Below are positions 2,259 to 23,145 of a stretch of DNA of 42,743 nucleotides, in pieces. The notes beneath the pieces are model-generated. The model ran no database searches. It saw nothing but the letters and a program-made list of their open reading frames with translations, and had not been told where the DNA came from. How positions within the stretch are numbered: the first letter of the stretch is position 1; each line of letters starts with the position of its first letter. This stretch comes from a bacterium (lineage in GTDB: Bacteria; Hydrothermota; 32-111). Made by a program: the position numbers and the translations under genes. The stretch lies in contig JBFXGO010000020.1 in NCBI GenBank assembly GCA_050239825.1, forward strand, positions 1 through 42,743, given 5' to 3'.

Positions 2259-2764
2259 TGTTCCCTCTTTGAAACTGTATTTAGATTTTTCACCAAAAAG
2301 AATCCGGCGAATGCAAAAATGAATTTAAAAAATAATGCAAACAGATACTGGTTGGATATTTTCATATAAACATAGCTGTGCTCTCCAAGGCCATACTTCG
2401 CCAAAATCCGAATTGATAGGTCAAGTATAAGAACAGGCAAAAACAACTGCACCAACTCTTTTACTGCTTCGGATTTTTTCAGAGTCAGCTGAATTCTCCT
2501 TGATTTGATGAATAAAAATATCAGATATGTCGGTATTGTCATAAAATCAAACATATACATAAGCAGCATTTTTTCTGAATTCACAGTAAATTCACTGCTC
2601 TTTACGCCTGTAAATACGGCAAGAAAGAAAAGAAAAAGAAGAAGCATCTGTGTTATGCCTGTTATGAATGATGCCGCAGAGACAAAGGCTTCTATTTCTC
2701 TTGTCTTGACAAAAACCGCAGCAAGCGCTGTTAAAAAAAGAAGAAAAGGAATTATGAACAGCAT
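2255..2764 (-). CDS. Hypothetical membrane protein
   Basis: 169 aa with several hydrophobic segments; abuts or overlaps both neighbours on the same strand. Confidence 0.65.
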   Translation of the reverse strand: MLFIIPFLLFLTALAAVFVKTREIEAFVSAASFITGITQMLLLFLFFLAVFTGVKSSEFTVNSEKMLLMYMFDFMTIPTYLIFLFIKSRRIQLTLKKSEAVKELVQLFLPVLILDLSIRILAKYGLGEHSYVYMKISNQYLFALFFKFIFAFAGFFLVKNLNTVSKREQ

Positions 2765-2765
2765 T

Positions 2766-4385
2766 TCACTTCTGCAGAAGATAATCTATTCTTGTTTTCA
2801 GATACTTGTCATTCTCTTCAGAGTACCCGACTCTCATGTAGCGGAGATTGCCCTTCTTGTCGATAAGGTATAGAGTCGGTACTCCCTTGATTGATTCCCT
2901 GTCCATCAGTTCTCCGCCGTTATAGTATATGTCAAAATCAAACGACATATTCTTAGCAAACTCCCTTATTGTATCGGCATCTATTTCAGAGGAGACAGCG
3001 ACAAAAGCGATCTTCTTCTCTTTTGAATATTCCTTCTTCATCTGCACAAGGTCTTTTATCTCCATTTTGCAGGGTCCGCACCATGTTGCGAAGAAATCGA
3101 TCAAAACCACCTTGCCTTTGTACTTTGAAAACTTATGCTCTTTTCCGTTTAAATCAATAAGTGAGGTCTCTTCAAATATTTTCTTTTCGCTCTCAGTTTC
3201 AAGATACTGGTCTATCTTTTTATCAATATCTTTAGAGCTCATCTTTGAATATGCCGCGACTCTGTCCAAAATCTCTTTACTCTTTCTGTCGTAAGTGAGA
3301 AGCTCAAAAGCGGCATCCATGACCATTGAGGTATCATCCTTAGCCGCCGCCGCATCATACATGAGTCTGAAAAAATCATAATCACGCGGTGCAAATTCTT
3401 CGAGGGCTTTTTTGACGAAAAAAACCGCAGAGTCCGCCTCCCCTGAGGAAAGGTAGGCCTTTGCTATAGAATAAAGTACATACTCTCCGAATTCAGAATA
3501 AATTTCATTTTCCATGAGTTCCTTAAGCGAGGATATGGCTATATTCATTGAACGGTTCTGGTCTGCAAGATATGATGCCGTGTAAAACTTTACTTCGTCG
3601 CTGATTTGCTTATTCAGCAGACTCACAAGTTTATTTGAGAGAATTGAGTCCTCATTTTCTCCTGAATACCTGTCGGTTATGTGATAAATTATGAATAAAA
3701 AATCGCTTAAATCGTAAAAATTATCTATGGAGTATGCCACAGCTTTATTCAATGCATCCTCATCTGCATCTTCAAGTTCGTAGATAGCTGTTAGAACGGA
3801 ATTAAAATATGGTTCGCTCTTTTCAAACAGAGGAAGTATTTTTTCAATCAACGAGGAATAATCCTTATCCATCTCCCTCAACAGCGAAGCATTCTTGTAC
3901 ATGACGGATACATTGTTTGGATTCTCCGAAAGATGTTTTTCCATTGCAGATTCCAATGATTCCGGATACTCTGCAAAATAAAAATCCATCATCCTGTCAT
4001 AAACATAGTAGTCATTCTTATTTTGATAGAATGCCTTCAAATAATTATCAAGCGCCTTTTCGTTTTTCTTGAAGAATGCGTAATTGTCTGCAAGATAAAT
4101 GTGTTTGTTGGTTTTATCTTTTCTGTCCACAAAGTAGATTTCCAAGAGGGAATCTTCAAATGTGGCTATTGAAATGATTGTATCTTCCTTTTCTATCTTA
4201 TGACTGTAAGAGTTATTTTTCACAGGATAGATTGCCTCCCTGTCAAAAAAATTGGAATTTCTGTATAATATAAGCGAATCATCCGCCGATTCAAACTTTA
4301 TGCTCTTTCCTTCCTTTACATAAGTCTCTCCTGAAATTAAGACCGCCGCCGATAAGAGCAGTATAAAGATTACTCTTCTCATCAT
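2766..4385 (-). CDS. Exported TlpA/ResA-family thiol-disulfide oxidoreductase with a long helical (TPR-like) N-terminal region
   Basis: C-terminal KGKVVLIDFFATWCGPC and GVPTLYLIDKKG motifs; signal-peptide-like N-terminus; start moved to ATG 4385 (or 4382) after AGGAGG. Confidence 0.8.
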   Translation of the reverse strand: MMRRVIFILLLSAAVLISGETYVKEGKSIKFESADDSLILYRNSNFFDREAIYPVKNNSYSHKIEKEDTIISIATFEDSLLEIYFVDRKDKTNKHIYLADNYAFFKKNEKALDNYLKAFYQNKNDYYVYDRMMDFYFAEYPESLESAMEKHLSENPNNVSVMYKNASLLREMDKDYSSLIEKILPLFEKSEPYFNSVLTAIYELEDADEDALNKAVAYSIDNFYDLSDFLFIIYHITDRYSGENEDSILSNKLVSLLNKQISDEVKFYTASYLADQNRSMNIAISSLKELMENEIYSEFGEYVLYSIAKAYLSSGEADSAVFFVKKALEEFAPRDYDFFRLMYDAAAAKDDTSMVMDAAFELLTYDRKSKEILDRVAAYSKMSSKDIDKKIDQYLETESEKKIFEETSLIDLNGKEHKFSKYKGKVVLIDFFATWCGPCKMEIKDLVQMKKEYSKEKKIAFVAVSSEIDADTIREFAKNMSFDFDIYYNGGELMDRESIKGVPTLYLIDKKGNLRYMRVGYSEENDKYLKTRIDYLLQK

Positions 4386-6574
4386 TCCTCCTTGCATTTT
4401 TTTATGTCCAATATTTTAAATTCATTGGTCTCTTCATTCTTTTTCATACCGCTAAGCTTCTTAACCAGCGGAGAGAGGTAGGATATTATGTTTCTGTCAA
4501 CATCGACATCAAAGACGCCGAGTATCGTGTATGTTTTCGTCTCCCCTTCTATCTTATTAAGAAGTGTCACTATTGTTCCGGGCTCTACTTTTTCCCCGGA
4601 GACAGTCGAAATATCTATCGGCTCCATTTTTGACAGTTGATTTTTGAGCTCTTCCGCCCTGAGTGAAAAAAGCCTATACTGTTCCCTTGAAAACTTGTAC
4701 TCTGAGTTTTCGCTCAAATCGCCGAGGGCCGCCGCCTCCTGTATGGTCTTTGAGAGCTTGGGCAGAACCTTCTCTGTTATTTCCGCGAATTCCTCCTGTT
4801 TTCTCTTTATTGAACCGTGAGTTGAAAGAAGAAATTCTGAAGCTTTGTAGTCCCTGTATTCCGGCCTAATTGAATAAACCTGCTTCCTTATTTCATCCTT
4901 CTGATAATCATTCAGATAAAGTATCTTCATGAATTCGTCAAAGATACGTTTGCCTGTTTCATCATTGGTTTTCTTAATCACATCAAGAAATTTCTTTTTC
5001 TTTGGGTCAAAAAAGTATCTACGCATAAAATTCAGAAACTCATCGGTCTTTCTCATTGCGTGTATGTCATTCGAAATCATGATAGTCCTCAACACAAGGT
5101 ACTCTTCATTCATCTCAAAAAGCGTTTCTTCAAGATGGTATGTAAGATACCACTCAACCAATGTCATGTTTTTTGATAGTCGGAATCCTTTATGAACAGA
5201 TTCGAGAAGTCTGATTTTGTTAGATTTTGAAATGCACTCATAAAGCTTCTCAATATGCTGCGGGTCAAGCTTTTCTGTTCTTTCAATATCCTTTTCAACT
5301 GCCTCTGCTGTAATCATCCTGCTTTTTAGGGCGTCGAAAATAAACTTCATATAAACTGCATTTTCAAGGTCATCGTCAGAAGCCTGTTTCGCATATTCTT
5401 CATCGCCAGTCACGAGATGCAGAACTTCATTCTTTCTTTCATCTTTTATTGTTTCTATGTGCTTCAAAATTATTTCCCTGTCGTCTTCGCCTATCTCTCT
5501 GTTCTTCATTGCAGTCATCATGTAATCCCGTATCTGGTCTATCGTCTTCATTTTTTTGACTTTGTTGGAGACGAGATTTCCGTTGATTGCCAGAACAAAC
5601 CTCTCGGGTTTTTCATATATTATCTCTAAATCTGCGCACTGCTCGAGAATTTTTTTGTTTTTTGTGAGGTATGATGACGCATCCTTTCCGAATATATATA
5701 CAAGCTCATCCTTCAGCTGGCTCTTGTCAAGGGCGGAATTTTTGTATTTGAGTATCATTACGACAAGTTGGCACGGGGGAATTTCTTTCGCTTCCTCCGG
5801 TTTGAAATACTTGTAAACTCTAAAATCATCCTTTTCAATCGGGCTGGTCTTCTCAGCTATTATTGAATATTTCACCTGTCTCTTTCCAGCAAACCTATCC
5901 TTCAATGTAAACAACTGCGATTCTTTGTCGAACTTTTCTATTCTGTATAATTCATTTTCAAAGAGAACGAACATATTCTCCTTGAATTTAGCGCCTGAGG
6001 CGTATTTTTCAAACAATTCCAAGGTCAGCTCCTTTCCTTTGAGAAAATGCTCAAAAGAAGAAATCATTATTCCGTCTTTGTCTCTCTCTTCAAACAGATG
6101 AGCGGGGTCCTTTTTCAGAATAAAACTTTTTATTAGCAAAAAGCAAAGGTCTTCTCCCTTGTCATCAGTCATTTTGAGATAATCCGTTACTATATCCTTA
6201 TTCTTATTGTTAATGAGAAACTCATTCAGCTCTTCAAATATGGGTTGAAGATTTGTTTTGTCCATGCAGGTTATGACGAAATCCTCAAGCATGTCCTTTC
6301 TGTCTTCTAAAAGTATCTTTCTAAGTAGGCGCACAGCATCTTCGCGCAAAGGAGCTTCTCCATACAGAAACTTATTGAAAAGATAATCCGTCTCCTCTCC
6401 CATCAGAGATTCCTGCACAAAATCAAAAACTCTTTTTCCTATAATATTGGCGGATCTGAGAAACAACCTGAGGAGGTGCTCATCGCTTGAGCTTGAAGCA
6501 GTCTCCAAATATTCGTTCACCACCCTTTCATGTTTCTTTTCTTCATAAAGCTTCTCTATTTTGCTTATGCTCAT
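4382..6574 (-). CDS. greA: GreA-domain transcription elongation factor with about 570 aa N-terminal extension
   Basis: C-terminal AAALGDLSENSEY and IISYLSPL GreA motifs. Confidence 0.8.
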   Translation of the reverse strand: MSISKIEKLYEEKKHERVVNEYLETASSSSDEHLLRLFLRSANIIGKRVFDFVQESLMGEETDYLFNKFLYGEAPLREDAVRLLRKILLEDRKDMLEDFVITCMDKTNLQPIFEELNEFLINNKNKDIVTDYLKMTDDKGEDLCFLLIKSFILKKDPAHLFEERDKDGIMISSFEHFLKGKELTLELFEKYASGAKFKENMFVLFENELYRIEKFDKESQLFTLKDRFAGKRQVKYSIIAEKTSPIEKDDFRVYKYFKPEEAKEIPPCQLVVMILKYKNSALDKSQLKDELVYIFGKDASSYLTKNKKILEQCADLEIIYEKPERFVLAINGNLVSNKVKKMKTIDQIRDYMMTAMKNREIGEDDREIILKHIETIKDERKNEVLHLVTGDEEYAKQASDDDLENAVYMKFIFDALKSRMITAEAVEKDIERTEKLDPQHIEKLYECISKSNKIRLLESVHKGFRLSKNMTLVEWYLTYHLEETLFEMNEEYLVLRTIMISNDIHAMRKTDEFLNFMRRYFFDPKKKKFLDVIKKTNDETGKRIFDEFMKILYLNDYQKDEIRKQVYSIRPEYRDYKASEFLLSTHGSIKRKQEEFAEITEKVLPKLSKTIQEAAALGDLSENSEYKFSREQYRLFSLRAEELKNQLSKMEPIDISTVSGEKVEPGTIVTLLNKIEGETKTYTILGVFDVDVDRNIISYLSPLVKKLSGMKKNEETNEFKILDIKKCKEE

Positions 6575-7020
6575 TTATGATACCTCATGTTGTTTCTTAT
6601 TGTAAAGCCTCTGTAAATCTGTTCCAGCAAAATTACTCTGAATAGTCTGTGTGGAAATGTCATTTTTGAGAATGAGAGTATTCTGCGCGCGGCATTCGCC
6701 ACTTTTTCATCTACGCCCCAGCTTCCTCCTATTATAAACGCAATATTCTGATTCTTCAGAATAGTTGAGAATTCCTCGGAATCAACCATCTCGCCTTTTC
6801 TGTCCAAAAGATAAACTCTGTCATAGTCTTTTATCTCAGAGATAATTCTTTCGGATTCCTCCCTTATAGCAGTCTTTTTGTCGTCTCGAAGTTCACCCGA
6901 ATCCTTTATGTATTTTATCTTCAAAGCGTCAAATCCCCTTATTCGTTTGATGTACTCGTCTGACAGTGCAGACCATTCGTCAGATTGTTTTTTTCCAACA
7001 GTTAAAATAGTTATCGCCAT
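6571..7020 (-). CDS. rlmH: 23S rRNA pseudouridine-1915 N3-methyltransferase
   Basis: ILTVGK, FIIGGSWG, MTFPHRLFRVILLEQIYRG and YHK motifs; start moved to Met13 of the track ORF. Confidence 0.93.
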   Translation of the reverse strand: MAITILTVGKKQSDEWSALSDEYIKRIRGFDALKIKYIKDSGELRDDKKTAIREESERIISEIKDYDRVYLLDRKGEMVDSEEFSTILKNQNIAFIIGGSWGVDEKVANAARRILSFSKMTFPHRLFRVILLEQIYRGFTIRNNMRYHK

Positions 7021-9708: not shown

Positions 9709-11596
9709 ATATTTTTTTCTGCCATTTGAATAAAAGCTTCGACATGTCATTCTCTTTAAGATAGGCGCGCCACTCCTCGTCAGTCAATCTTTCAGACATA
9801 GGGTTCTTGAATTCAAAATATGACATGGCGCCACCCGTGAAATCTTCTCCTCTGTATGAGACATTCATGCAAAGAACCGGACCGACGCCCTCCTGAAGAA
9901 CCATCTCTGAATTAGAATCCGTGTGCACATCAGATACTATCTCTATGTTGTCCTCTCTCTCTGACTGATTCACAAGCAAAACTTTCAGAGCATTGTCCAT
10001 TGTGAGAAGAGCGCTTCTCAAACTGTCGGATTCATAGTAATAACCATTCTTCATTGTGATATCCGATATCTCGGAGTAAATCAGGCAGAGATTCGTAAAA
10101 GCATCTCCGGCCGCCTCTATGTAGCCGTCATTGAAGATTTGATTCAGATTATCGACAAGAAAGACAGCATCCTCTCTCATTATTTTATAGAGAGTGTTGT
10201 AGCTCTCTGCTATTATTTTTGTCTGTTTTGCCTCCTTTGGCGCCGCGCTGGTCACTTTTACCGTATATGACTGTTTCGCATAGAGTATCACATCGTGCCT
10301 GAGAGAAGCCCAACTTGCCAAAAGCGAATTTAGCTCCTTCAACTGGTACTTTTCATCAAGCATAAAAGAAGGAGAGGATTCTTTTCTTTCGCTTATGACA
10401 TTTTTATACTGAAGAAGCATCCTGTTGTAAAATGATTCTTTTGAAAGGTCTTTCGCCTTCTTTTTCATCAAAACGGAGTTTTCCGAATAATCTTCATACT
10501 GCGCATCACCCTCTGATTCAAGTATTTCATATGCCTTGCCGGATCCGAGAATATACATCAAATCCAAGCCGCGCGGCATAGCTCTGACAGAGCCGAAGAG
10601 CGTAAAGGGCTTGCCTTTTCCTTTGTATTCGGTGACTTTATCGTACACAAGGTTCTGAAAGACCTCTGAATCAAAAATGTACCTCTGCCCCATGAATCCG
10701 ACAACAACCGTCTTTGCTTCATTGTCCTTTTTATAGTCGGAGAGTATTTTAGAGTCCGACAATCTTGCCGCTGTTTCCTTCGCTTTCATCATCTTTCCTT
10801 TGTCGCATAGAAAATCATCATCGACAATCTCTCCGATCGAATCGGAGAGCTCCGTCAAACAAAGGTCATCCTCCTTTGGAAGCAGAACCGAAACAGCATT
10901 GTTGATTCTTTCGTAATGATATTTTGCCTTCGAAGAGCTTTTAAGCGTTGATGAAAGTATCAGGGCTGCCTTAAGTTCGTCGAATGTGTCTTGATTTTTA
11001 GTCTCTGTCGAGAATCTCATCCTCATCAGATACATCATGGCTTTGAAATATTTTTCAAGGTTCTTTGTTCTTGTATAATGTCCTCTGGGAATATATTGGG
11101 AGTAATCCTCTTTTTTTGAAAAGACCGGAGATTCATCAAATCCGGAGTGATTCTCGATTTTCATCAGTTCTTTTTCGACATTCCCCGCAATGGGCTTTAT
11201 GAGCGGGTAGTTGCTATCAAGGCACTTTTTTGACACAGAGAGATAAGATAGAGCCATCATATAAGAATCTTTCAAGGATTCCTTTTTCGATTCATTCATT
11301 CTTTTTTTGACGCCTTCAATTAAAATATCAAGCATAGCATCAAGTTCGACGCAGAGAAATTTTTCTTCAATGTAATAGAGAGAATAATCAAGAAGGAGGT
11401 GCTCCGCGTAAAACATCAAATCTTTTGTCATTAAAACTTTTTCATTGTTTTTAAGAAGATCCGAGTAGTATCCGATAAATGAAGTTTCATCCGTGAAAGA
11501 AAGCGTGAGCATCTCGGCTTTTGGTTTTTCCAGAGAAAAGGCTCCAACCGAGAGACAAATAAAAGCAAGAACAAGTGCCACGTTTATTTTCCTCAT
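9701..11596 (-). CDS. Exported DUF3160-family protein
   Basis: Signal peptide; YIPRGHYT, GQRYIFDS, WASLRHDVILYAKQSY, RLTDEEWR motifs; AGGAGG RBS. Confidence 0.8.
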   Translation of the reverse strand: MRKINVALVLAFICLSVGAFSLEKPKAEMLTLSFTDETSFIGYYSDLLKNNEKVLMTKDLMFYAEHLLLDYSLYYIEEKFLCVELDAMLDILIEGVKKRMNESKKESLKDSYMMALSYLSVSKKCLDSNYPLIKPIAGNVEKELMKIENHSGFDESPVFSKKEDYSQYIPRGHYTRTKNLEKYFKAMMYLMRMRFSTETKNQDTFDELKAALILSSTLKSSSKAKYHYERINNAVSVLLPKEDDLCLTELSDSIGEIVDDDFLCDKGKMMKAKETAARLSDSKILSDYKKDNEAKTVVVGFMGQRYIFDSEVFQNLVYDKVTEYKGKGKPFTLFGSVRAMPRGLDLMYILGSGKAYEILESEGDAQYEDYSENSVLMKKKAKDLSKESFYNRMLLQYKNVISERKESSPSFMLDEKYQLKELNSLLASWASLRHDVILYAKQSYTVKVTSAAPKEAKQTKIIAESYNTLYKIMREDAVFLVDNLNQIFNDGYIEAAGDAFTNLCLIYSEISDITMKNGYYYESDSLRSALLTMDNALKVLLVNQSEREDNIEIVSDVHTDSNSEMVLQEGVGPVLCMNVSYRGEDFTGGAMSYFEFKNPMSERLTDEEWRAYLKENDMSKLLFKWQKKIYD

Positions 11597-20174: not shown

Positions 20175-20250
20175 TCGGAGCGACTGGATTTGAACCAGCG
20201 ACCCCTTGCACCCCAAGCAAGTGCGCTAAACCGGGCTGCGCTACGCTCCG
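20175..20250 (-). tRNA. tRNA-Pro (anticodon GGG), CCA not encoded
   Basis: Cloverleaf: CGGAGCG/CGCTCCG acceptor, GCGC D-stem, CTTGC-TTGGGGT-GCAAG anticodon arm, GCTGG-TTCAAAT-CCAGT T-arm, discriminator A followed by TATT. Confidence 0.96.
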
Positions 20251-20269: not shown

Positions 20270-20297
20270 ATTATATATATTATTTAATTTTTTGCAA
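20270..20297 (-). promoter_or_regulatory. Sigma70-type promoter for tRNA-Pro and glyQS
   Basis: Minus strand TTGCAA (20292-20297), 16-nt spacer, TATAAT (20270-20275). Confidence 0.7.
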
Positions 20298-20369
20298 TAG
20301 TAACATTTCTCTCTCTATGCCTTAGGCTTATATGCGAATGAGCGCTACACCTGCCAACAGCCCCACAAG

Positions 20370-20509
20370 TCAGCCTTGAGCCGTGAGCCTTGTGCCGTGA
20401 GCTTAATACGGGGAGCTGATTAAATGACTTGGCTTTACAGTTCCGAGGAAAAATTCCAGTGCATCTCCGCACTGCTATTCGATGTTTTTCCGAGGACAAG
20501 CAAGTCAAT
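20370..20509. repeat. Module A copy 1 (140 nt)
   Basis: Matches 21032-21171 except one base; heptamer run followed by nested inverted repeats TGACTTG/CAAGTCA, GGAAAAA/TTTTTCC, CAGTGC/GCACTG. Confidence 0.93.
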
Positions 20510-20510
20510 T

Positions 20511-20651
20511 CTTATTGAAAGTGAAAGCTCAAAGTCGGCGAGGACGCTCCGCGCAGACGCCCATCAAGTGGTTGTCCCCTTGCTACGCTATCCCATCTTG
20601 ATAAAGCGGCGAAGCGGAGTGTGCGAGCCGACGCTACGCCCGCGTGTAGCC
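20511..20651. repeat. Module B copy 1 (99-nt hairpin at 20534-20632)
   Basis: Nested stems GTCGGC/GCCGAC, CTCCGC/GCGGAG, CGCC/GGCG, ATCAAG/CTTGAT; trailing GCTAC/GTAGC hairpin. Confidence 0.93.
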
Positions 20652-20670
20652 CCAGCTCAATCTTCAATTA

Positions 20671-20763
20671 TCAATTAACAATAAACTGATAGACCCTTCA
20701 CGATAGTCATAACCACAGAGGCGTTCAGGGTGACACTGCTGAATAAGATTTTGTCTTTACAGT
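20671..20763. repeat. Module C copy 1 (93 nt)
   Basis: Three mismatches to 21327-21419; core AGACCCTTCACG...GTTCAGGGTGACA at 20691-20735. Confidence 0.92.
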
Positions 20764-20835
20764 AATCTTCACAAAGTTCTGGTGCAACCCGATAACTCTA
20801 TCATGTGCGTTCGCACACATTCCACCCTCGCCAAT

Positions 20836-20864
20836 GTGGGGACATTCCTTCGGTGTGTCCCCAC
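20836..20864. repeat. REP-like palindrome within unique segment D
   Basis: GTGGGGACA-11 nt containing CTTCGG-TGTCCCCAC, 9-bp perfect stem. Confidence 0.7.
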
Positions 20865-20884
20865 TGCAATAGGCAATTAATTAA

Positions 20885-21025
20885 CTTATAGAAAGTGAAA
20901 GCTCAAAGTCGGCGAGGACGCTCCGCGAAGACGCCAATCAAGTGGTTGTCTCCTTGCTCCGCTAACCCATCTTGATAAAGCGGCGAAGCGGAGTGTGTGA
21001 GCCGACGCTACACCCGCCAGCAGCC
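20885..21025. repeat. Module B copy 2
   Basis: Hairpin 20908-21006, six substitutions versus copy 1 in the 99-nt core. Confidence 0.93.
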
Positions 21026-21031
21026 ACTAAA

Positions 21032-21171
21032 TCAGCCTTGAGCCGTGAGCCTTGTGCCGTGAGCTTAATACGGGGAGCTGATTAAATGACTTGGCTTTAC
21101 AGTTCCGAGGAAAAATTCCAGTGCATCTCCGCACTGCTATTCAATGTTTTTCCGAGGACAAGCAAGTCAAT
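21032..21171. repeat. Module A copy 2
   Basis: 662 nt downstream of copy 1; single G/A difference (20481 versus 21143). Confidence 0.93.
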
Positions 21172-21173
21172 AA

Positions 21174-21314
21174 CTTATTGAAAGTGAAAGCTCAAAGTCG
21201 GCGAGGACGCTCCGCGAAGACGCCCATCAAGTGGGCGACCCCTTGCTCCGCTAACCCATCTTGATAAAGCGGCAAAGCGGAGTGTGCGAGCCGACGCTAC
21301 GCCCGTCAGTAGCC
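21174..21314. repeat. Module B copy 3
   Basis: Hairpin 21197-21295, seven substitutions versus each other copy in the core. Confidence 0.93.
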
Positions 21315-21326
21315 TATAAACAAACT

Positions 21327-21419
21327 TCAATTAACAATAAACTGATAGACCCTTCACGATAGTCATAACCACAGAGGCGTTCAGGGTGACACGGTTGAGT
21401 AAGATTTTGTCTTTACAGT
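21327..21419. repeat. Module C copy 2
   Basis: Matches 20671-20763; ends 13 nt from the stop of the asparagine-synthetase-like gene. Confidence 0.92.
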
Positions 21420-21432
21420 TTTGCTGAACAGT

Positions 21433-23145
21433 TCATTTGATCAGGTGCTTCACTCCTGAAAGCAGTGTCAATACCTGAGTCTTCTCCTTGAGAGTTCCTT
21501 TTTTATACAGATACTCTGCGTCGCTCTTTATTCCTTTATCAATAAGGTGCAGATTTGTATTGTAATAATTGTCAAGTTCAGTCATCAGGACATTGTTTCT
21601 CTTCATCCATTTTTCCCACGGATTTTTTGACGGCCTGTATCCCAAAAACATCGTAGCTATCCTCTTGCCTGCTTTCCTTGCGAATATCTCTGCTTTTGTA
21701 GATGAGAGTTTAGCCCCAGCTATGTGTTCCCACCTGTAATCATTCACATGAGGTGTCTTTTTGAGAGCCCATTTTACATATATACCCGCATTGAATTTCA
21801 GTTTGGGGTCTATCCTCATTATATATTCAAGAGGAAGCGGATGAATGGACGGAGATGCAAATTCAGTAAATTGCTGAATCTGCATGAATGCATTGTACAT
21901 TCCGTTCACGCACTTTTCATAGAATGCCATCTGCTCCATTGTTTCGTATTTTTCACATAGAGGCCTCAGCATTGGAATCGCCCTCTCATACAATTTTGTC
22001 GAGTAAAATATTATCTTCAGCCTCTCCGGCGTCGGCTTGTCGTGATACGGAAACTGAAGGGATGTATAGAGCACCTCATTTCCAGCCACTCCTGTGTGCA
22101 TGAGACCATAACCTTTGAGATTAAGTCTCGAAATCATGGAATACATATATGATGAACCGCTGTAAAATACAAGAGAATCATTCGCTCTGCTTGAGCTTTC
22201 AATATCCCTGAGGTATGTGCCGTTATTGAGAGAATAAAACATATATTCGTCTTTCATATCTGCAGCTATCTTTTTCGATATTGTCTCATCAAGGTAATTG
22301 TTTTCAGAGAAACAAATGCTTAAGAAATCCTTGAATCCGAGTCTGTGCGCATTGAGCACATTCATTCTTGAATCAAGGCCTCCTGAGAGTGTAGAAATAT
22401 GCCTGTATGAATATTCAAGATCCTTCTCATACTCTGCCTTTATCGCTTGTATGTAAAGATTGTCAAGCTCCTCTATTATTGCATCCTCTGATTTTTGTAT
22501 GACAGGATAAGATGAGATTTTGAAATATTTTTCCTCTATGATATTATTCCCGTCATAAGAGAGAATTGTTCCGGGTTCAATTTTCCCGACTCCTTCAATG
22601 AGGGTGACATCTCCTATCATATATCCTATTGAGAGCATGCAGTTGGCTCCATTCTCATCCAATTTGACAGATATGCCGTTTTTCCTCATCATCTCTGCAA
22701 CAGCTTCAACAGTATTTGCAAACAAAAGAATGGATTTTTCTTTGCTTAAATAATAGAACATCTGCTTTGCGCCGTTCTGGCATGTGAAGAGAGTTATTCT
22801 GTCGGATGATTTGTCATAGACAAATCCTGAGAAGTTCCCGTGCATTGATGAAGGAAATGACTTTACGGAAGTTTTGAAATTCTTCTTTATAAGCTCAAAC
22901 ATTGAATTTACAGAGGATTGCTTTTTTAAAACATTTGAATTGAATACAATACCTTCACATCCTATCATAAACTCTTCGTCTTCAAAGAATACCTTATCAT
23001 TCAAAAACTGATTGAGAGTATTTCTTCCTGCAAAGCCGCGCCCCATATTCTTCATCTCATTGATTTTCAAATGGTCATTTGAAAATTGCGCAAAATCCTG
23101 CGCAATTTGAATCTGTTTTGAATAACATCCGTACAATCCTATCAT
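21433..23145 (-). CDS. Asparagine synthetase (AsnB)-like ATP pyrophosphatase-domain protein
   Basis: PP-loop LSGGLDSR, TG..GNE motif, GATase-like N-domain (HGNFSGFVYD, KIEPG); N-terminus MIGLYG lacks Cys2. Confidence 0.75.
   Translation of the reverse strand: MIGLYGCYSKQIQIAQDFAQFSNDHLKINEMKNMGRGFAGRNTLNQFLNDKVFFEDEEFMIGCEGIVFNSNVLKKQSSVNSMFELIKKNFKTSVKSFPSSMHGNFSGFVYDKSSDRITLFTCQNGAKQMFYYLSKEKSILLFANTVEAVAEMMRKNGISVKLDENGANCMLSIGYMIGDVTLIEGVGKIEPGTILSYDGNNIIEEKYFKISSYPVIQKSEDAIIEELDNLYIQAIKAEYEKDLEYSYRHISTLSGGLDSRMNVLNAHRLGFKDFLSICFSENNYLDETISKKIAADMKDEYMFYSLNNGTYLRDIESSSRANDSLVFYSGSSYMYSMISRLNLKGYGLMHTGVAGNEVLYTSLQFPYHDKPTPERLKIIFYSTKLYERAIPMLRPLCEKYETMEQMAFYEKCVNGMYNAFMQIQQFTEFASPSIHPLPLEYIMRIDPKLKFNAGIYVKWALKKTPHVNDYRWEHIAGAKLSSTKAEIFARKAGKRIATMFLGYRPSKNPWEKWMKRNNVLMTELDNYYNTNLHLIDKGIKSDAEYLYKKGTLKEKTQVLTLLSGVKHLIK

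What the first reader, a model, noticed from the sequence alone, without database searches (positions are those of the whole stretch)
20343..21419. Modular mosaic of structured non-coding elements (b'-A-B-C-D-B-A-B-C): best candidate for an undescribed system
Seen: in a window where genes nearly all touch, about 1.1 kb carries three unrelated 93-141 nt modules, each with internal inverted repeats, reused in different orders (on the + strand B follows A or D and precedes A or C). Module bodies are conserved while the short linkers differ (B-to-A: CCACAAG versus ACTAAA; B-to-C: CCAGCTCAATCTTCAATTA versus TATAAACAAACT). Known: BIMEs and REPINs are mosaics of short REPs mobilised in trans by RAYT (HUH) enzymes, but these modules are much longer than typical REPs. 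Inference: either a cassette-like array of non-autonomous elements shuffled by an enzyme encoded elsewhere, or an array of structured RNAs. No such enzyme is in the window.
Basis: partly seen in the sequence, partly recalled or inferred. Interest (0 to 1): 0.85.

Follow-up and report, generated by a model that had tools for sequence, protein, structure and literature searches.

The report
Mosaic hairpin repeat with nuclease-flank parts
This 1.1-kb gap is one of about 45 similar arrays in an uncultured WOR-3 bacterium, built from interchangeable hairpin and 7-base-repeat pieces, some matching the ends of small selfish genes elsewhere in the same genome; it looks like a new relative of the known intergenic mosaic repeats of Neisseria and E. 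coli, not a new kind of system or a proven RNA.

Summary
The unit is a fixed loop, B hairpin – variable hairpin X – 24-nt hub – variable segment Y. "A" is X1+hub+Y1, "C" is hub+Y2, "D" is X2, and b' is a truncated sister hairpin. The genome holds 45 arrays (1.9% of its DNA, 103 B copies). B was found only in this genus (3 of 151 WOR-3 genomes searched). Stems keep their pairing, and B folds best on the strand opposite the neighbouring genes, which argues against an mRNA structure. Y2 is the hairpin that flanks the genome's intact Ssn-type GIY-YIG single-strand nuclease gene; Y1 is the heptamer arm of its four-helix-bundle gene. B and X have no enzyme partner found. The fine shuffling of alleles is reproduced by ordinary gene conversion among about 100 copies, so no shuffling enzyme is needed. 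Verdict: a NIME/BIME-like selfish DNA mosaic, a new variant of a known kind; a role for Ssn in building it is a testable inference (about 0.35). This scan already reported the family at least eight times on other DNA of this genome.

The parts
20175..20250 (-). tRNA-Pro(GGG), neighbour on the native 3' side of the array (not part of the repeat)
   Evidence: Rfam RF00005 60.9 bits; ARAGORN
20270..20297 (-). sigma70-like promoter match of tRNA-Pro/glyQS; similar sequence is kept in two congeners that lack this array
   Evidence: consensus match only, 10 of 12; congener loci L037, L047
20318..20366 (-). b': Y-to-B linker plus the first ~25 nt of a truncated sister hairpin B2; native 3' end of the array
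   Evidence: BLAST to C66, C60, C54 where B2 is complete
20367..20416 (-). Y1 copy 1: heptamer tract (20371-20402) of the type flanking the genome's four-helix-bundle gene
   Evidence: 81-94% identity over 18-33 nt to flanks in L035
20417..20440 (-). hub 1 (constant 24-nt joint between X and Y)
20441..20496 (+). X1 hairpin copy 1, GA/GA internal loop on the + strand
   Evidence: folds; loop kept in 20 of 21 copies
20534..20632 (+). B long hairpin copy 1, GA/GA loop on the + strand
   Evidence: z -2.7 DNA, -3.2 RNA on +; -0.9, -1.4 on -; pair counts
20633..20690 (-). B linker and AT-rich 7-periodic tail of Y2
   Evidence: periodicity score 17 of 21
20691..20735 (-). C core (Y2) copy 1: TGTC-tagged hairpin with GA/GA loop, same type as the 5' flank of the Ssn-type gene on contig C27
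   Evidence: 85.7% over 56 nt, E 9e-14
20740..20763 (-). hub 2
20764..20870 (-). X2a ('D'): nested hairpins, inner 20803-20820 and REP-like 20836-20864
20908..21006 (+). B copy 2
21029..21078 (-). Y1 copy 2 (heptamer tract 21033-21064)
21079..21102 (-). hub 3
21103..21158 (+). X1 hairpin copy 2
21197..21295 (+). B copy 3
21347..21391 (-). C core (Y2) copy 2
21396..21419 (-). hub 4; native 5' end of the array, 13 nt after the stop codon of the upstream gene
21433..23145 (-). asparagine-synthase-like amidotransferase gene, upstream neighbour (not part of the repeat)
   Evidence: TIGR01536 E 1e-14, below its cut-off

Best explanation
A genus-specific, selfish intergenic mosaic repeat that works like Neisseria NIMEs and enterobacterial BIMEs. 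Shown: a 290-375-nt unit with two constant parts (B, hub) and two interchangeable slots (X, Y), 1-6 B copies per array, nearly always co-oriented within an array; stems keep their pairing; arrays appear at new sites; alleles are shuffled between copies. Shown by sequence: the Y slot is filled by the flank hairpin of the genome's Ssn-type GIY-YIG gene or by the heptamer arm of its four-helix-bundle gene, and TIRYT-type terminal repeats gather at array edges. Inferred mechanism: the hairpins form on single-stranded DNA (replication fork or incoming DNA); a site-specific nick beside a hairpin starts repair by recombination with any other copy through B or the hub; short conversion tracts swap X, Y and single alleles, unequal exchange adds units, and occasional copying seeds new sites. 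Ssn is the best candidate nicking enzyme for C (about 0.35 that it drives the arrays); the enzyme reading B and X, if there is one, was not found.
For: 45 arrays of 200 nt or more among 57 hit clusters, 40,560 nt of 2,115,113. Fixed grammar and near-independent X-Y choice (chi-square p 0.054, n 70); same grammar with other X and Y alleles in congeners. 84 distinct of 90 canonical B; mean r2 0.013-0.024 beyond 8 nt against 0.011 for independence; a plain gene-conversion model (100 copies, 30-100-nt tracts) gives 0.012-0.036. Neighbours in an array are more alike than copies elsewhere (5.1 vs 6.5 differences, permutation p 0.0005). Pairing kept: B 96.1% of cells, 4 pairs with two-sided change, 0 of 500 shuffles (22 sequences); outer arms of short D match in 34 of 38 copies. 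Invariant internal loop: B 103 of 103, X1 20 of 21, X3 18 of 18, C 42 of 43. Mobility: a site filled in a congener is empty in G000 (L064 vs C13), and one gap holds arrays of opposite orientation in G000 and G002 (C36 vs L006); at the window's own site both congeners have a Y1-transposase gene next to the tRNA instead. Ssn link: intact 94-aa GIY-YIG (C27:46085-46366), 44.9% identical (E 2e-18) to a N. gonorrhoeae protein with six NTS within 500 nt, with the three residues mutated in the SsnA paper aligned; C-type hairpin 50 times in G000, 0 for the reversed control.
Against: No enzyme partner for B, X or the hub, which are the constant core (B model: 3 of 151 genomes, all one genus; no B or X match in the flanks of 30 Ssn-type or 30 four-helix loci outside the arrays themselves). 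C does not match the published SRM pattern (4 genome hits, none in arrays). G001 has arrays although both of its Ssn-type hits contain stops, and only 21 of 103 units have C in the Y slot. Likeness of C to the gene flank could come from conversion in either direction. No fixed ends or target duplication were seen. Orientation follows both neighbouring genes (15 of 16 tandem gaps) and GC skew (38 of 45; 13 of 16 non-tandem, p 0.02; 12 of 16 by third-position skew, p 0.08), so replication and transcription are not separated. The simulation is a simple neutral model and does not reproduce the high r2 at 1-3 nt at those tract lengths.
Confidence: 0.7

Rival explanations
1. An array of structured RNAs (or mRNA-stabilising, terminating hairpins) kept for host benefit.
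For: Compensatory changes; native orientation matches flanking genes in 15 of 16 tandem gaps; convergent gaps are over-used (8 of 49 against 16 of 357 tandem); the window array starts 13 nt after a stop codon.
Against: B and X1 fold better as RNA on the strand opposite the genes (z -3.2, -3.3 against -1.4, -1.8); an invariant pair of B is G-U only on that strand (103 of 103) and a second is G-U there in 66 of 103, though another pair favours the gene strand in 10; no Rfam match; no positional conservation between congeners; no promoter-like site inside the array.
Confidence: 0.12
2. A dedicated cassette-shuffling system in which an enzyme swaps X and Y cassettes at the hub and B ends.
For: Strict slot grammar with a constant hub, conserved across the genus with other cassettes; multi-base allele blocks look like modules.
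Against: Exchange is not confined to cassette borders: linkage is lost everywhere inside B and is explained by ordinary conversion; no recombinase gene was seen beside the arrays examined (18 selected proteins); the only reverse transcriptase is in G000 alone among the three genomes; cassettes carry no ORFs or unique spacers.
Confidence: 0.08
3. Host-useful recombination arms: arrays promote gain and exchange of the genes between them, as proposed for NIMEs. Compatible with the best explanation.
For: Several accessory-type genes lie between or beside arrays: AbiEii/AbiEi pair, nucleotidyltransferase, two AAA_14-DUF4143 ATPases, Fic, RhuM.
Against: These were chosen by eye; many arrays flank core genes (dnaN-like, tRNAs, glyQ); no enrichment test against background was run.
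Confidence: 0.15
4. Assembly chimera: the mosaic order was made by the assembler walking through shared repeats.
For: Metagenome assembly; congener contigs often break at these repeats; no listed contig spans the array.
Against: Longest exact repeat is 111 nt; left junction reproduced in Logan contigs; matched-arm covariation over 60+ nt and the same grammar in separate assemblies would not arise from random paths.
Confidence: 0.05

Closest known systems
Neisserial intergenic mosaic elements (NIME: dRS3/NTS hairpins with RS elements) and the SsnA nuclease (PMC1797815, passages; PMC11893778, parts 1-5 of 11)
   Same: Long intergenic arrays of a constant element alternating with variable 50-150-nt pieces; syntenic sites differ in content; other repeats collect in them; an Ssn-type gene in the genome is flanked by the same tagged hairpin that occurs in the arrays.
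   Different: The constant element is a 99-nt hairpin plus a hub, not the nuclease-linked hairpin; C is only one of the fillers; units are co-oriented with few allele types (4 X classes, 2 main Y); no sequence match to dRS3/NTS or the SRM pattern; distant phylum (the 2007 paper says NIME arrays had not been seen outside Neisseria).
REP/BIME with RAYT; CGTC-tagged REPs; TIRYT/TIR families (PMC3733652, passages)
   Same: Extragenic hairpin mosaics near gene ends; C is a TGTC-tagged stem-loop; TIR-flanked Y1 transposase genes are present and their TIRs form a repeat family.
   Different: B, X and D are 55-110 nt, not 20-40; none of G000's four Y1 genes is flanked by B, X or C.
Pneumococcal BOX elements (PMC3184786, passages; boxA/B/C subunit structure recalled, not read)
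   Same: Modular non-autonomous intergenic repeat of variable length.
   Different: No sequence relation tested; here the parts come from flanks of several unrelated selfish genes.
Heptamer-armed four-helix-bundle (PF05635) cassettes
   Same: Y1 matches the heptamer arms around the G000 gene; 15 of 26 WOR-3 loci have a 7-periodic tract within 150 nt against 0 of 24 distant controls.
   Different: In the arrays Y1 is a single arm of one orientation, not an inverted pair around a gene.

Membership tests
NIME | dRS3/NTS repeats delimiting each unit | tested here: not met
   The SRM pattern, which matches NTS, has 4 hits in G000 and none in arrays
NIME | Intergenic arrays of constant element alternating with variable non-coding pieces, dynamic at syntenic sites | tested here: met
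NIME | Raised variation of flanking genes | not tested
   Only a hand-picked Pfam scan
BIME/REP with RAYT | 20-40-nt GTAG-tagged palindromes as the building block | tested here: not met
   Core hairpins are 55-110 nt; only the 29-nt hairpin in D is REP-sized
BIME/REP with RAYT | RAYT gene flanked by the same repeats | tested here: not met
   The four G000 Y1_Tnp genes are bounded by TIRs, no BLAST match to A-D
Ssn nuclease (for the C27 gene) | Single-domain ~95-aa GIY-YIG homologous to SsnA (E<1e-10) with catalytic Tyr, Tyr, Glu | tested here: met
   94 aa, PF01541; 44.9%, E 2e-18 to the NTS-flanked N. gonorrhoeae protein; Y5, Y16, E63 align with Y6, Y17, E64. That this protein is SsnA is inferred from its NTS flanks; the record has no annotation there
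Ssn nuclease (for the C27 gene) | Gene flanked on both sides by tagged hairpins | tested here: met
   Inverted TGTC-tagged GA/GA hairpins on both sides in G000 and G002
Ssn nuclease (for the C27 gene) | CDD cd10448 assignment; sequence-specific ssDNA cleavage | not testable with these tools
   No CDD search; needs an assay
SRM (for module C) | Match to the published degenerate SRM pattern | tested here: not met
   the pattern also misses most relatives: 2 of 30 WOR-3 Ssn-type loci match, while 9 of 30 have a C-like GA/GA hairpin against 0.9% of shuffles
MITE | Fixed ends with terminal inverted repeats and target-site duplication | tested here: not met
   Array ends fall at several points of the unit; none seen by eye in 45 arrays, part of the 3' end list was cut
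Known RNA family (Rfam 15) | Covariance-model match | tested here: not met
   (best E 2.6)
CRISPR-like array | Unique spacers between repeats | tested here: not met
   X and Y fall into a few classes repeated genome-wide

The most novel reading that the evidence does not exclude
Ssn-type single-strand nucleases are general builders of intergenic mosaic arrays, and in this genus one such enzyme (or an unknown partner that reads long hairpins with a GA/GA loop) has stitched the ends of three unrelated selfish-gene families (GIY-YIG, four-helix-bundle, TIRYT) into one self-spreading composite repeat with a fixed slot grammar: an independent, non-Neisseria NIME system with a natural enzyme-substrate set to test.
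Probability: 0.3. Interest if true: 0.6.

Novelty: new variant of a known kind. Interest (0 to 1): 0.36.

Why it matters
How CGTC/TGTC-tagged repeats and NIME-type arrays spread is open: PMC3733652 found no dedicated transposase, and PMC11893778 only raises the idea that SsnA expanded its repeats. This genome offers one intact Ssn-type gene, about 50 cognate hairpins and several look-alike hairpins on the opposite strand, so the question becomes a simple oligonucleotide assay. It also shows that repeat kits usually described one by one (Ssn flanks, heptamer arms, TIRs) can be fused in one array. If the assay fails it is an ordinary lineage-specific mosaic repeat filling 2% of a small genome.

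Tried and rejected
Rfam at gathering and E-value thresholds: nothing in the array. Coding: 84-aa ORF without a family. REP-type RAYT as mobiliser: G000's four Y1 genes are TIR-bounded; two REP-type RAYTs in G002 have other flanks. Reverse-transcriptase spread: RVT_1 found in 1 of 3 genomes. Loss of mismatch repair as the cause of fine shuffling: MutS and MutL are present in 3 of 3. Unusually short conversion tracts: not needed. A distant home for B: 21 exact 21-mer stretches in the GTDB contig scan; the 14 printed (output partly cut) showed the same repeat kit and no shared neighbouring gene, and four records with other organism titles may be misbinned; 0 of 148 genomes outside the genus by covariance model (only 25 candidates scored per genome). 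Independent strain assembly of this locus: metagenome scan gave one distant locus ending in the gene. Expression: no RNA holder listed. Small-share runs X2 and X3 were laid and show only short pieces. LD for Y1 and hub+C could not be computed (pattern errors). Replication against transcription bias: inconclusive. Literature: 6 searches found no description of this family or of heptamer-flanked four-helix-bundle genes; the library lacks most subscription papers and no supplements were read (the Ssn paper's Supplementary Data 3-5 may list C-like flanks).

Full report
Setting. The window is contig C35 of genome G000 (2.12 Mb, 39.8% GC). Records that share the repeat are titled WOR-3. The array fills the gap between an asparagine-synthase-like gene (21433-23145, minus) and tRNA-Pro/glyQ, upstream of the tRNA's promoter-like site. 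'Native' below means the window's minus strand, the direction of the flanking genes.

Observation. The repeats, their order and the linker differences are as described. Nothing in Rfam matches. BLAST with the four modules gives 57 clusters in the genome, 45 of at least 200 nt, 40,560 nt in all (1.9%), with modules co-oriented except in two clusters. The longest exact match of the array elsewhere is 111 nt and Logan contigs of run X1 reproduce the left junction, so a chimera is unlikely; the internal order is not independently shown and X1 may be the source.

Anatomy. Anchoring on the ends of B and on a shared 24-nt motif shows a fixed loop, B - X - hub - Y - B. Of 103 B copies in 43 arrays (1-6 each), 99 are followed by one of four X classes (X1 23, long D 27, short D 31, X3 18) and 100 by a hub; Y is a heptamer tract in 50, the C hairpin in 21, an end form in 23, unclassified in 6. 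X and Y combine almost independently (p 0.054, n 70). So A = X1+hub+Y1, C = hub+Y2, D = X2. b' is the start of a sister hairpin B2. The window array contains a ~660-nt-spaced duplication of A-B-C in which A and C stayed 97-99% alike but B only 92.6%, as expected if B was patched from other copies. Congeners use the same loop with other X and Y alleles.

Structure. B, X1 and D fold better than shuffles; C does not. On an alignment of 22 B copies (22 of 41 found in stored loci, picked for diversity; some may come from one genome under two ids), 96.1% of cells pair and four pairs change on both sides, 0 of 500 shuffles reaching this (relatedness inflates this control). The outer arms of short D come in two self-complementary versions and match in 34 of 38 copies, r2 0.65-0.88 over more than 60 nt (background linkage in D is also higher than in B). 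A 2x2 internal loop is invariant: it reads GA/GA on the + strand in B (103 of 103), X1 (20 of 21) and X3 (18 of 18), and on the native strand in C (42 of 43). Wobble pairs and fold scores favour the + strand for B, opposite to the genes, with one pair pointing the other way. That tandem GA pairs are stable in both DNA and RNA is recalled, not tested.

Where the parts come from. C matches the 5' flank of a 94-aa GIY-YIG gene on contig C27 (85.7% over 56 nt) and, less well, that of its ortholog in G002 (74.6%). The protein is 44.9% identical to a N. gonorrhoeae protein with six NTS repeats within 500 nt, and keeps the residues whose mutation abolished cutting in SsnA (PMC11893778, parts 1-5 of 11 and passages read). 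It is found in 35 of 201 WOR-3 genomes; 9 of 30 loci (7 of 27 outside the genus) have a tagged GA/GA hairpin within 250 nt, against 0.9% of shuffles. The C-type pattern occurs 50 times in G000, 9 in G001, 11 in G002, 5 in G004, 0 in G003, and never reversed. Against this link: C fails the published SRM pattern, and G001 has arrays with broken Ssn-type genes. Y1 matches the heptamer arms around the four-helix-bundle gene on C49; such arms are common at these genes (15 of 26 loci scored, 4 of 30 dropped for no hit or short flank; 0 of 24 controls). One TIR of the genome's TIR-bounded Y1 transposase genes occurs 22 times, 12 within 250 nt of arrays that cover 2.8% of the genome; it is not in the window array. 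B, X and the hub have no such parent: a covariance model of B hits 3 of 151 genomes, all this genus.

How it changes. 84 of 90 canonical B copies are distinct; linkage between variable sites falls to the sampling floor beyond 8 nt. A neutral model of gene conversion among 100 copies with 30-100-nt tracts gives the same profile, with MutS and MutL present. Copies in one array are more alike than copies elsewhere, so local duplication adds units. Arrays also arise at new sites: filled and empty orthologous gaps, and one gap with oppositely oriented arrays in G000 and G002; at the window's site the congeners have a Y1 transposase gene beside the tRNA, G001 also a short B-like piece. Ends are not fixed. 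Orientation follows genes and GC skew alike.

Mechanism. Most likely selfish DNA: hairpins form on single strands, a nick beside them starts recombinational repair from another copy through the constant parts, and conversion plus unequal exchange make the mosaic. The anatomy, pairing, shuffling and dispersal are shown; the nick, the enzyme and the single-strand context are inferred from the SsnA precedent. Rivals are an RNA array (0.12), a dedicated cassette shuffler (0.08), host-useful recombination arms (0.15, compatible) and assembly chimera (0.05).

Comparison and verdict. It works like NIMEs and BIMEs (PMC1797815, PMC3733652, PMC3184786: passages only) but is not a member: no dRS3/NTS, no REP-sized core, no cognate RAYT, no MITE ends. 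I found no printed description in six searches. This scan had already reported the family on other contigs of the genome at least eight times with a similar class, one note naming NIME and SsnA, and the heptamer link in other genomes; I had reached the grammar and the Ssn and heptamer links before those look-ups. New variant of a known kind; interest 0.36.

Noticed in passing
G000:C49:187-702 and 4281-6971 (L081), C25 from 47651 (L080), C66 about 2690-3010 (L082); also G002 (L072, L073): Ssn-type hairpins and heptamer tracts lie in frame between the start codon and the hydrophobic signal stretch of secreted LVIVD/T9SS-tail-type proteins, giving repeat-coded N-terminal extensions of 60-110 aa that differ in module number between paralogs, reminiscent of Rickettsia palindromic elements inside genes (recalled). 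Whether they are translated is unknown.
   Followed up: partly
G000:C27 about 42750-43170 and 45200-45500: Two tRNA-Ser genes are followed by tandem units that end in a copy of the tRNA's 3' end and contain the same REP-like hairpin as D, running straight into arrays.
   Followed up: no
G000:C22:10780-10905, C9:37880-38180, C19:6836-6985 and 9972-10120, C33:9180-9452: Gene-less pairs of the TIRs that bound the genome's Y1 transposase genes: MITE-like derivatives of TIRtrons.
   Followed up: partly
L047 about 3275-3345 (G001, ortholog of the window's gap): A short frame reading like the N-terminus of a REP-type RAYT (judged by eye against L072 and L073) precedes the B-like piece and an intact TIR-bounded Y1 transposase gene.
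   Followed up: no
G000:C28:24600-30550, C43:6857-7291, C39:6735-8003, C44:919-2094, C48:28453-29598: Accessory-type genes (AbiEii/AbiEi, nucleotidyltransferase, AAA_14-DUF4143, Fic, RhuM, Bro-N, ORF6N) sit between or beside arrays.
   Followed up: partly
G000:C17:34300-34725 (L087): A 498-aa reverse-transcriptase frame not found in the two congeners.
   Followed up: no
alignment A1, columns 34-73: The short B variant replaces the middle of the inner helix by a second GA/GA loop (6 of 22 rows).
   Followed up: partly
L051, L052, L069, L070, L056, L059, L061: Contigs titled Vulcanibacillus, Gammaproteobacteria and Pacearchaeota carry this repeat kit; probably misbinned WOR-3 contigs.
   Followed up: no
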